Source: a virus
IMG/VR virus record: IMGVR_UViG_3300050159_000095
Length of the DNA: 64,000 nucleotides
Strand: one strand, 5' to 3'
The notes under the pieces are model-generated. The model saw only the letters and a list, made by a program, of their open reading frames with translations, was not told where the DNA came from and did no database searches. Made by a program: the position numbers and the translations under genes. Shown one piece after another: positions 8,451-8,702 of this stretch; positions within the stretch are counted from its first letter, which is position 1, and each line of letters starts with the position of its first letter.

Positions 8451-8666
8451 ATTGCTGTTGCGCTGGTGTGAGTTACTTCAGGTTGAAAACGCACTCACTC
8501 CAACATTATCTCAGCGGTTGTTTTTCAAGGTTACGTGATGTTGCGTAGACCAAGGGTTACTTCATCTGCTTTTCTGGTTGATCCCAAGACACCCTAGTCG
8601 CTCTAATCTCATCACCCCGTAGCTCCCAGCCGCTGAGATCGATTAAAATCGCTCAGCGGCTTTTTT
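8451..8666 (+). ncRNA. structured leader RNA with alternative terminator/antiterminator upstream of Ro60
   Basis: Two TGTTGCG..G(A/G)GTTACTTCA motif hairpins; 8508-8520 complements 8627-8639, which is also the 5' arm of terminator 8628-8666. Confidence 0.7.
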
Positions 8667-8702
8667 ATTGCAAAACCATAACCTTACCTCAGGAGAACAA
8701 CT

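What the first reader, a model, noticed from the sequence alone, without database searches (positions are those of the whole stretch)
8451..8702. Riboswitch-like attenuator with tandem motif hairpins controlling Ro60
The ~250-nt leader has two copies of TGTTGCG...G(A/G)GTTACTTCA (8456-8480 and 8539-8564), each in a hairpin (GTGAGT/ACTCAC and AGGGT/ACCCT). ATCTCAGCGGTTG (8508-8520) can form 13 bp with CAGCCGCTGAGAT (8627-8639). That second segment is also the 5' arm of the terminator AGCCGCTGAG...CTCAGCGGCT-U6 (8628-8666). The two folds are mutually exclusive. The terminated ~215-nt RNA could itself be the Y-RNA-like Ro60 partner, so Ro60 may regulate its own expression by binding the leader. 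This is a strong candidate for an undescribed cis-regulatory or Y-RNA class.
Basis: partly seen in the sequence, partly recalled or inferred. Interest (0 to 1): 0.85.

Follow-up and report, generated by a model that had tools for sequence, protein, structure and literature searches.

The report
Tandem Y RNA genes before phage Ro60
The folded "leader" in front of this uncultured phage's Ro60 gene is a small transcription unit that most likely makes two Y-type partner RNAs for the Ro60 RNA-binding protein; a competing fold that could tune Ro60 expression exists here but is seen only in this phage's closest relatives.

Summary

**What the hairpins are**
- The two "motif hairpins" are not riboswitch aptamers. 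They are two copies of a structured RNA module.
- The module has a closing stem, a 5' GNCG(U/A)AG motif, a second stem, a GUUACUUC...GAAA top and a 3' UUAUCUC motif.
- I found 103 copies. All lie beside Ro60 genes on the Ro60 strand, in phages and bacteria. Both main stems covary strongly.
- Copies lie upstream of Ro60, downstream of it, or directly against its start codon.
- Long copies carry a tRNA-like insert and give weak YrlA (RF02553) matches. The window's two copies belong to the short class with no tRNA-like domain. No Rfam family matches them.

**Best reading**
- The unit is promoter, then Y RNA 1, then Y RNA 2, then an intrinsic terminator.
- Ro60 has no visible promoter of its own, so it is most likely expressed by read-through.

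**The alternative fold**
- The 13-bp pairing that competes with the terminator is real and unusually strong here (-22 kcal/mol).
- It is clearly above controls only in the window and one relative (L002), borderline in a third lineage, and not in four others.
- A Ro60-sensing attenuator therefore stays an untested hypothesis (about 20%).

This scan has already reported similar Ro60-associated RNA arrays with a shared handle on other DNA.

The parts
8415..8444 (+). Sigma-70-like promoter: -35 TTGTCT (8415-8420), 18-nt spacer, -10 TATACT (8439-8444). The predicted start is near 8450.
   Evidence: the only promoter-like site on the + strand in 7600-10600. A TTGNNN-17/18-TATA(C/A)T element sits at the equivalent place before module 1 in L002, L005, L012, L140 and L142.
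8453..8516 (+). Y RNA module 1 (short, handle-only). Closing stem P1: UGCUG 8453-8457 with CAGCG 8512-8516. 5' motif UUGCGCUGG 8458-8466. P2: 8468-8473 with 8493-8498. Top: UUAC then UUCA/UGAA, 8477-8480 with 8484-8487. 3' motif AUUAUCU(C) 8505-8511.
   Evidence: R1 79 bits, E=2e-19; R2 59 bits. P1 and P2 covary across 103 homologues.
8535..8615 (+). Y RNA module 2 (short class with a larger top). P1: GUGAUG 8535-8540 with CAUCAC 8610-8615. 5' motif UUGCGUAG 8541-8548. P2: GAC 8548-8550 with GUC 8597-8599, and AGGGU 8553-8557 with ACCCU 8591-8595. GUUACUUCA 8556-8564. 3' motif CUCUAAUCU 8601-8609.
   Evidence: R2 38 bits, E=7e-6. Compensatory changes against L002 and L005: GUGUUG/CAACAC, CGAGU/ACUCG.
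8508..8520 (+). Segment X (AUCUCAGCGGUUG). It spans the 3' handle motif and 3' strand of module-1 P1, plus 4 linker bases. It can pair with Y instead.
8627..8639 (+). Segment Y (CAGCCGCUGAGAU). This is the 5' arm of the terminator. It can pair with X over 13 bp as a candidate antiterminator.
   Evidence: Letting this arm pair upstream is worth 15.9 kcal/mol in the nascent RNA. None of 14 other terminator arms from the same phage reaches that value.
8628..8666 (+). Intrinsic terminator: 10-bp outer stem, 2-nt bulge, 4-bp inner stem, UAAA loop, then U6 (8661-8666).
   Evidence: -20.5 kcal/mol. A terminator of different sequence holds the same position after the RNA modules in L002, the L005 group, L012, L140, L142 and L143.
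8691..8695 (+). Ribosome-binding site AGGAG of Ro60, 7 nt before the ATG.
8703..10403 (+). Ro60 orthologue (566 aa; TROVE plus vWA domains). It starts 36 nt after the terminator U-tract, and no promoter-like site lies between.
   Evidence: Pfam TROVE 2e-23 and VWA_2 3e-7. PHROG 850 RNA-binding protein. Closest solved structure: Thermus phage phiLo Ro60, 9KOP/9L5Y, E=2e-13.

Best explanation
Positions 8415-8666 form a self-contained small-RNA transcription unit. A host-type promoter drives two tandem Y RNA modules, and a strong intrinsic terminator ends the unit.

Each module is a Ro60-binding handle of the YrlA type:
- a closing stem;
- a single-stranded GNCG(U/A)AG motif on the 5' side;
- UUAUCUC on the 3' side;
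- a second stem;
- the conserved UA in GUUACUUC.

The handle is capped by a small hairpin in place of the tRNA-like domain that YrlA carries.

The RNA, either as one two-handle transcript of about 215 nt or after cutting into two, is inferred to bind the Ro60 ring encoded 36 nt downstream and to gate or tether it, as Y RNAs do elsewhere. The neighbourhood is rich in RNA-repair genes (Pth2, ADP-ribosylglycohydrolase, CYTH, RNA ligase).

No promoter is visible between the terminator and the Ro60 start. Ro60 mRNA is therefore inferred to arise by read-through, so the terminator sets the ratio of Y RNA to Ro60 mRNA.

Shown here: the structure, its covariation, the exclusive association with Ro60 genes, and the link to the YrlA handle.
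Inferred: transcription, Ro60 binding, processing and read-through.
For: 1. **Family and covariation.** A model built from four relatives, then from 41 sequences, finds 103 copies at E<=0.001, all on the Ro60 strand.
   - 90.5% of cells are paired, against 64.9% in shuffles.
   - 367 double-change cells, against 107 in shuffles.
   - All 5 P1 pairs and all 6 P2 pairs covary. Sliding the partners by one column collapses pairing to about 50% (the smaller set is).
2. **Specificity.**
   - 63 of 63 matches in 31 of 47 viral Ro60 loci are on the Ro60 strand.
   - In five whole records or genomes (13.9 Mb), all 11 matches lie within about 1.2 kb of the Ro60 gene.
   - The 64-kb window holds only these two copies.
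3. **Link to known Y RNAs.**
   - Long copies (about 140-157 nt) carry a T-loop motif in 27 of 39 cases; short copies do so in 1 of 64.
   - They enclose full-length but sub-threshold RF02553 matches: L145 1959-2073 and L153 4334-4446.
   - The 5' motif fits the GNCGAAN0-1G Ro60-recognition motif, and the UA fits the conserved YUAY/UA kink (PMC4201824; 10.1101/312249).
4. **Independent unit.** Promoter and terminator are conserved in position in seven related lineages, while the terminator sequence differs. In five of those lineages another ORF separates the unit from Ro60.
5. **Precedent.** Tandem Y RNAs upstream of Ro60 are known in M. smegmatis, D. radiodurans and Thermus phage phiLo.
Against: - There is no expression or binding evidence for this RNA. 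No RNA run was listed for it.
- Rfam's YrlA model gives no match at E<=10, and the defining tRNA-like domain is absent. Calling it a Y RNA therefore rests on the shared handle and the gene association.
- Module 1 has a degenerate 5' motif (GCGCUGG rather than GCGUAG).
- In this window the thermodynamically best fold of the full RNA is not two modules plus terminator. It is the X:Y alternative, by 5 kcal/mol. Plain constitutive termination is therefore not what the fold predicts here.
- Several relatives with 50-61% identical Ro60 (L011, L059-L062) show no module within 2.5 kb.
Confidence: 0.8

Rival explanations
1. Ro60-sensing transcription attenuator. While the RNA is being made, Y's first bases (CAGCC) catch the free linker GGUUG (8516-8520). 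Y then displaces the short module-1 closing stem, forming the 13-bp X:Y helix. That blocks the terminator, and transcription runs on into Ro60. Ro60 bound to the module-1 handle would clamp that stem, leave Y free for the terminator, and so shut off its own mRNA while still producing Y RNA.
For: - X:Y is -22.4 kcal/mol, and no shuffle or sliding window matches it.
- The nascent transcript up to 8640-8650 folds with X:Y formed.
- The full-length ensemble gives X:Y a probability of 0.98.
- Letting the terminator arm pair upstream is worth 15.9 kcal/mol. The best of 14 other terminator arms from this phage reaches 10.0.
- L002 behaves the same way: 10.5 kcal/mol, 0 of 14 arms reach it; duplex p=0.016.
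- The terminator is atypical for this phage, whose other terminators are 8-10-bp GC stems with tetraloops.
- No promoter is visible between the terminator and Ro60.
Against: - Four related lineages (L012, L140, L142, L143) do not differ from generic terminator arms; the L005 group is borderline (2 of 14). All relatives keep the terminator in the full-length fold, P>=0.78.
- X-Y complementarity partly follows from the terminator's 3' arm being a near copy of the handle's 3' strand. It also partly reflects a linker helix that merely extends module 2's closing stem.
- The module family works in positions where attenuation is impossible: downstream of Ro60, or abutting its ATG without a terminator.
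- No informative sequence variation exists within the sub-clade to test covariation of X:Y.
- It is not known whether Ro60 binding would stabilise or open the stem.
Confidence: 0.2
2. One long two-handle Y RNA. The mature RNA adopts the alternative fold, in which the 5' end (8454-8460) pairs with the terminator's 3' arm and X pairs with Y. This gives a single RNA of about 215 nt closed by its two ends, able to hold two Ro60 rings.
For: - This is the minimum-free-energy fold in the window.
- The terminator's 3' arm repeats the handle's 3' strand: AUCGCUCAGCGG against UAUCUCAGCGG.
- phiLo Ro60 forms dimeric particles with a Y-like RNA.
Against: The fold is specific to the window and is not predicted in any relative. 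Termination itself requires the competing hairpin to form first.
Confidence: 0.1
3. A purely cis-acting 5' UTR. The modules are Ro60 binding sites on its own mRNA, used for translational or stability feedback, and are not released as trans-acting Y RNAs.
For: In many phages the last module ends 1-20 nt before the Ro60 ATG with no terminator. The modules are then physically part of the mRNA.
Against: Here a strong terminator separates the modules from Ro60. In bacteria the arrays lie after Ro60. In M. smegmatis, upstream Y RNAs are processed from a precursor into stable RNAs.
Confidence: 0.08
4. A small-molecule riboswitch with tandem aptamers.
For: Two similar structured domains precede a terminator with an alternative pairing.
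Against: The domains are tied to one protein family whatever their position relative to the gene. They occur in arrays of up to six, often after the gene. They share the protein-recognition motif of Y RNAs. No Rfam riboswitch matches.
Confidence: 0.02

Closest known systems
YrlA / YrlB, bacterial and mycobacteriophage Y RNAs bound by Rsr (Ro60): Chen et al. 2014, PMC4201824; Wang et al. 2018, 10.1101/312249; Rfam RF02553
   Same: - Encoded within a few hundred bases of Ro60 on the same strand, often in tandem.
- A closing stem formed by the two ends.
- A GNCGAA-like motif near the 5' end and a conserved UA after it.
- Long members of the same model family carry the T-arm/D-arm insert and give sub-threshold RF02553 matches.
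   Different: - The window's two modules have no tRNA-like domain. A 3-4-bp UUC/GAA hairpin or a 33-nt irregular top replaces it.
- They score nothing with RF02553.
- The motif is mostly GNCGUAG rather than GNCGAAG.
- Whether they equal Salmonella YrlB was not tested.
Thermus phage phiLo Ro60 with Yrl1 and Yrl2 (PMC12135203; PDB 9KOP, 9L5Y)
   Same: A phage Ro60 with two Y-like RNAs encoded directly upstream, each a stem-bulge-stem with a CGAA-type motif. It is the closest solved protein by sequence.
   Different: The proteins share only weak similarity (E=2e-13 over residues 170-542). The phiLo RNAs were picked by motif and folding, with no family model. I found no mention of a terminator or alternative fold in the passages I read.
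Deinococcus radiodurans Yrn1/Yrn2 and Mycobacterium smegmatis YrlA/YrlB loci
   Same: Several Y RNAs lie upstream of rsr. In M. smegmatis they are processed from one precursor.
   Different: Those RNAs have T-arm features, and Yrn1 tethers PNPase. No effector module is recognisable here.
Protein-mediated transcription attenuation (for example TRAP, PyrR and ribosomal-protein leaders; from general knowledge)
   Same: Only for the rival model: a terminator and a competing upstream helix, with a protein-binding RNA deciding between them.
   Different: No evidence that Ro60 alters the choice. The competing helix is not conserved beyond the nearest relatives.

Membership tests
Y RNA (Ro60-associated noncoding RNA, broad class) | Encoded close to a Ro60 orthologue on the same strand (Chen et al. 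2014 used 4 kb) | tested here: met
   The modules end 87 and 187 nt before the Ro60 ATG, on the + strand. Family-wide, 103 of 103 matches are on the Ro60 strand. Every whole-genome match lies beside Ro60.
Y RNA (Ro60-associated noncoding RNA, broad class) | A stem formed by the RNA's two ends that carries the Ro60 recognition motif (GGUCCGA in animals; GNCGAAN0-1G in bacteria) | tested here: inconclusive
   The closing stem is present and all 5 of its pairs covary. The motif is a variant: UUGCGUAG in module 2 and UUGCGCUGG in module 1. The family consensus is G-u-u-g-C-G-U-A-g, and GCGAA occurs in L015 and L145.
Y RNA (Ro60-associated noncoding RNA, broad class) | Physically bound by Ro60 | not testable with these tools
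   Needs EMSA or RIP.
YrlA (Rfam RF02553) | Scores at or above the family's gathering cut-off (69 bits) | tested here: not met
   No RF02553 match at E<=10 in 8300-8800. Even the long relatives reach only 32-45 bits.
YrlA (Rfam RF02553) | tRNA-like effector domain (T arm, acceptor-like stem, D arm) | tested here: not met
   The short class to which the window's modules belong lacks these motifs: 1 of 64 short copies has a T-loop or D-arm motif, against 27 of 39 long copies with a T-loop motif. ARAGORN finds nothing in the region.
YrlA (Rfam RF02553) | Conserved Ro60-binding module with a UA kink after the 5' motif | tested here: met
   GUUACUUC is present in both modules. UAC-UUC is nearly invariant in 103 copies. 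RF02553 matches that span model positions 1-114 lie inside the long members.
Terminator/antiterminator attenuator (riboswitch-like leader) | Intrinsic terminator between the sensor and the regulated ORF | tested here: met
   Hairpin 8628-8661 plus U6. The Ro60 ATG follows 36 nt later.
Terminator/antiterminator attenuator (riboswitch-like leader) | A mutually exclusive antiterminator helix | tested here: met
   X:Y is 13 bp and -22.4 kcal/mol. It forms in the nascent fold and dominates the ensemble.
Terminator/antiterminator attenuator (riboswitch-like leader) | The alternative helix is conserved or covaries in relatives | tested here: not met
   It exceeds generic terminator arms only in the window and L002, and weakly in the L005 group. 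It does not in L012, L140, L142 or L143. The terminator wins in every relative.
Terminator/antiterminator attenuator (riboswitch-like leader) | The sensor domain always lies 5' of the controlled gene | tested here: not met
   The modules lie after Ro60 in most bacterial loci and some phage loci.

The most novel reading that the evidence does not exclude
In this phage and its nearest relatives, the first Y RNA handle doubles as a sensor for free Ro60. Ro60 binding to the nascent handle would decide between a toehold-driven antiterminator (X:Y) and the terminator. One transcription unit would then yield either Y RNA alone or Y RNA plus Ro60 mRNA, keeping protein and RNA in balance. As far as I could find, this would be the first Y RNA acting in cis as a protein-responsive attenuator.
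Probability: 0.18. Interest if true: 0.7.

Novelty: new variant of a known kind. Interest (0 to 1): 0.45.

Why it matters
Ro60 and its Y RNAs are an ancient RNA-surveillance particle, and what they do in bacteria and phages is still poorly understood.

- **A broader family.** The YrlA-type Ro60 handle turns out to be the constant part of a much larger module family that is not in Rfam. The family has a common short class lacking the tRNA mimic. It is present in T4-like, crAss-like and Xanthomonas phages and in many Bacteroidota. The covariance model built here could improve annotation of Ro60 loci.
- **A test case.** This phage offers a compact two-handle RNA plus Ro60, placed among RNA-repair genes.
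- **A possible feedback circuit.** The strong terminator-competing helix gives a concrete, cheap experiment on whether Ro60 controls its own synthesis through its partner RNA.

Tried and rejected
- **blastn of 7700-10500 against cultured phages:** no match.
- **Single-protein search of IMG/VR:** nothing. An alignment query was needed.
- **Rfam:** nothing relevant at the gathering cut-off or at E<=10.
- **L001 (90% identical Ro60):** the contig holds only 170 nt upstream. An ORF fills it, with no module, so it could not test X:Y covariation.
- **Degenerate DNA pattern scan of IMG/VR:** 41 matches. 39 of the 41 loci had no Ro60 hit; 39 loci were then searched with the model and only 3 had a match. 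About 100 chance matches are expected for a pattern of this information content, so the result was dropped as uninformative.
- **RNA evidence:** no RNA holder was listed for 8445-8668. The one RNA-library contig laid covers 8696-8929 only, at low depth, and does not bridge the terminator. This says nothing either way.
- **Listeria phage P100** (a relative of CKA15, whose abundant RNAs upstream of an Rsr-like gene were suggested to be Y RNAs, PMC12282133): no model match below E=0.19 and no Pfam TROVE match. That system is too distant to help.
- **Different second module of L012, L140, L142 and L143:** the alignment gave no consensus structure.
- **Small-molecule riboswitch reading:** rejected because the modules follow one protein family regardless of position.
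- **Function on the opposite strand or as DNA repeats:** rejected because G-U pairs are kept on the + strand and every match shares the Ro60 strand.

Full report
**Setting.** The window is an uncultured tailed phage. It is held in leaf-litter and freshwater metagenomes, and no cultured phage is close.
- ORF 8703-10403 is a Ro60 orthologue. It has Pfam TROVE and vWA domains and matches PHROG 850. The closest solved structure is Thermus phage phiLo Ro60, at E=2e-13.
- The surrounding genes concern RNA repair and translation rescue. They are an RF-1-domain protein, an ADP-ribosylglycohydrolase, Pth2, a CYTH protein and an RNA ligase.
- The finding lies in the 329-nt gap between Ro60 and a divergent 218-aa gene.

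**Observation.**
- The 236-nt stretch folds better than its shuffles (z = -3.2).
- The terminator is a 34-nt hairpin of -20.5 kcal/mol followed by U6.
- Segment X (8508-8520) pairs with the terminator's 5' arm Y (8627-8639) over 13 bp at -22.4 kcal/mol. No shuffle and no other window of the RNA equals this.

**What the two hairpins are.** Relatives whose Ro60 is 65-74% identical keep the element.
- Each hairpin is a module with these parts:
  - a closing stem P1;
  - a 5' UUGCGUAG motif;
  - a stem P2;
  - GUUACUUC, a small UUC/GAA hairpin or a larger top, then GAAAC;
  - a 3' UUAUCUC motif.
- I built a covariance model from four copies of module 1. It found 41 further matches beside Ro60 genes.
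- A second model built on those matches found 103 copies at E<=0.001 in 63 loci, every one on the Ro60 strand.
- On that alignment 90.5% of cells pair, against 64.9% after shuffling. There are 367 double-change cells against 107, and all pairs of P1 and P2 covary. Sliding the partners by one column drops pairing to about 50%.
- In 47 IMG/VR Ro60 loci, 31 carry the module. All 63 matches are on the Ro60 strand, about 52 upstream and 11 downstream, often in arrays of two to four.
- In bacteria (Flavobacterium, Chryseobacterium, Niastella, Tannerella, Sporocytophaga, Singulisphaera and a Clostridiales genome) arrays of up to six follow Ro60.
- In five complete records or genomes totalling 13.9 Mb, all 11 matches lie next to the Ro60 gene. 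These are Rhizobium phage RHph_Y65, crAss001, Xanthomonas phage MET23-P3, Chryseolinea serpens and a Flavobacterium.
- The association is therefore with the protein, not with a position in front of a gene.

**Relation to known Y RNAs.** The copies fall into two size classes.
- Long copies (about 140-157 nt) hold an insert with a tRNA T-loop motif in 27 of 39 cases. Short copies (73-100 nt) do so in 1 of 64.
- In RHph_Y65 the insert reads as a T arm, a stem and a D arm. That is the permuted-tRNA layout of YrlA.
- Rfam's YrlA model (RF02553, cut-off 69 bits) gives full-length but sub-threshold matches inside such long copies. Examples are L145 1959-2073 at 34 bits and L153 4334-4446 at 32 bits.
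- The 5' motif corresponds to GNCGAAN0-1G, which Chen et al. proposed as the Ro60 recognition site. The UA of GUUACUUC corresponds to their conserved YUAY and to the UA kink seen in the YrlA crystal structure.
- The module is therefore the YrlA-type Ro60-binding handle, and the window's two copies are handle-only versions.
- They are not YrlA members in the strict sense. They have no tRNA-like domain and no RF02553 score.

**Transcription unit.**
- A TTGNNN-17/18-TATA(C/A)T promoter precedes module 1 in the window (8415-8444) and in five related lineages.
- A terminator follows the last module in all seven lineages, and its sequence differs between them.
- In L002, the L005 group, L012, L142 and L143, a further ORF of 86-132 aa lies between the terminator and Ro60.
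- In the window and in L140, Ro60 follows directly.
- The next ORF's ribosome-binding site begins only 7-35 nt after the U-tract, and no promoter-like site is found there. Downstream genes are therefore most likely read by terminator read-through (inference).
- In many other phages the last module ends 1-20 nt before the Ro60 ATG with no terminator at all. Co-transcription of Y modules with Ro60 is thus common, and a terminator is an addition in this clade.

**The attenuator question.**
- In the window the alternative fold is favoured. The full RNA folds at -67.9 kcal/mol with X:Y, against -62.6 with module-1 P1 plus terminator. X:Y has probability 0.98 in the ensemble and already forms in the nascent RNA before the terminator's 3' arm exists.
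- I measured how much the nascent RNA gains when the terminator's 5' arm may pair upstream. I compared this with 14 other terminator arms from the same phage grafted into the same place:
  - window: 15.9 kcal/mol, 0 of 14 arms reach it;
  - L002: 10.5, 0 of 14;
  - L005 group: 10.0, 2 of 14;
  - L012, L140, L142, L143: 5.4-8.1, 1-4 of 14.
- In all relatives the full-length fold keeps the terminator, with P>=0.78.
- Part of the X-Y complementarity is a linker helix that simply lengthens module 2's closing stem. It covaries as GGUUG/CAGCC, UCAAG/CUUGA and UUGAA/UUCAA.
- The rest arises because the terminator's 3' arm is a near copy of the handle's 3' strand.
- The competing helix is therefore real and striking in this phage and one or two relatives. 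It is not a conserved property of the unit, and there is no sequence variation within the sub-clade to test it.
- A Ro60-dependent switch is mechanistically coherent. It would work by toehold at 8516-8520, branch migration through P1, and a block when Ro60 clamps the handle. It remains untested, and I give it about 20%.

**Comparison and novelty.**
- Tandem Y RNAs next to Ro60 are established in M. smegmatis, D. radiodurans, Salmonella, mycobacteriophages and phage phiLo.
- Four things are new relative to the papers and the Rfam release I could search:
  - the breadth of the handle family;
  - its short class without a tRNA mimic;
  - its presence in T4-like phages;
  - the terminator-coupled layout with a strong competing helix.
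- Earlier agents of this scan reported the same theme, a constant handle with variable cargo beside phage Ro60, on other DNA. The family-level finding is therefore not unique to this window.

**Verdict.** This is a new variant of a known kind, of moderate interest.

Noticed in passing
L122 4005-4093 (-), L123 2079-2169 (-), L156 4001-4085 (-), L220 4049-4139 (-): Rfam Flavo-1 RNA (RF01705, function unknown) scores above its cut-off directly after Ro60 genes in four Bacteroidota loci. Rfam calls it on the strand opposite to Ro60. It may be a Ro60-associated RNA.
   Followed up: no
L012 1445-1520, L140 1861-1935, L142 1417-1475, L143 1637-1690: In four related phage lineages the second RNA between module 1 and the terminator is a different structured element. 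It has a long closing stem, a D-arm-like hairpin with GG, and a small GC hairpin. The handle model does not recognise it. An automatic alignment gave no consensus.
   Followed up: partly
L016 2369-2452, L022 2382-2459, L066 766-840, L056 2362-2435, L024 2396-2471: In several phages the last Y module ends 1-12 nt before the Ro60 start codon. The 3' strand of the closing stem therefore lies where a ribosome-binding site would be, which suggests possible translational coupling or feedback.
   Followed up: no
window 10448-12039: A 142-aa ORF with no family hit and a 365-aa protein matching the T4 Gp23 major-capsid family follow Ro60 here. A Gp23-family ORF also follows Ro60 in L140, L142 and L143, preceded by a small unnamed ORF in L140 and L142. 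This is an odd, conserved neighbour for an RNA-binding protein.
   Followed up: no
window 2120-15060: Ro60 sits in a cluster of RNA-repair and translation-rescue genes: an RF-1-domain protein (2701-3261), an ADP-ribosylglycohydrolase (6305-7279), Pth2 (7281-7682), CYTH (12650-13144) and an RNA ligase (13984-15060). CYTH and RNA ligase also follow Ro60 in L002.
   Followed up: partly
window 2120-2215: The tRNA-Arg(TCT) gene is called at 93-96 nt, unusually long for this tRNA. It may hold an insert.
   Followed up: no
window 4457-4476, 7689-7708, 10408-10427, 15090-15109, 39116-39135 and others: The phage's usual terminators are short palindromic AAG(G/C)-stem-tetraloop-CUU hairpins that read as terminators on both strands. 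The Y RNA terminator at 8628-8661 is the clear exception.
   Followed up: partly
L003 826-1470; window 3080-3847: Homing-endonuclease genes (GIY-YIG/NUMOD3) are inserted near the Ro60 unit in one relative, and elsewhere in the window.
   Followed up: no
L011, L059, L060, L061, L062: Relatives with 50-61% identical Ro60 show no handle module within the sequence held (up to 2.5 kb each side). They may use a different partner RNA or encode it elsewhere.
   Followed up: no
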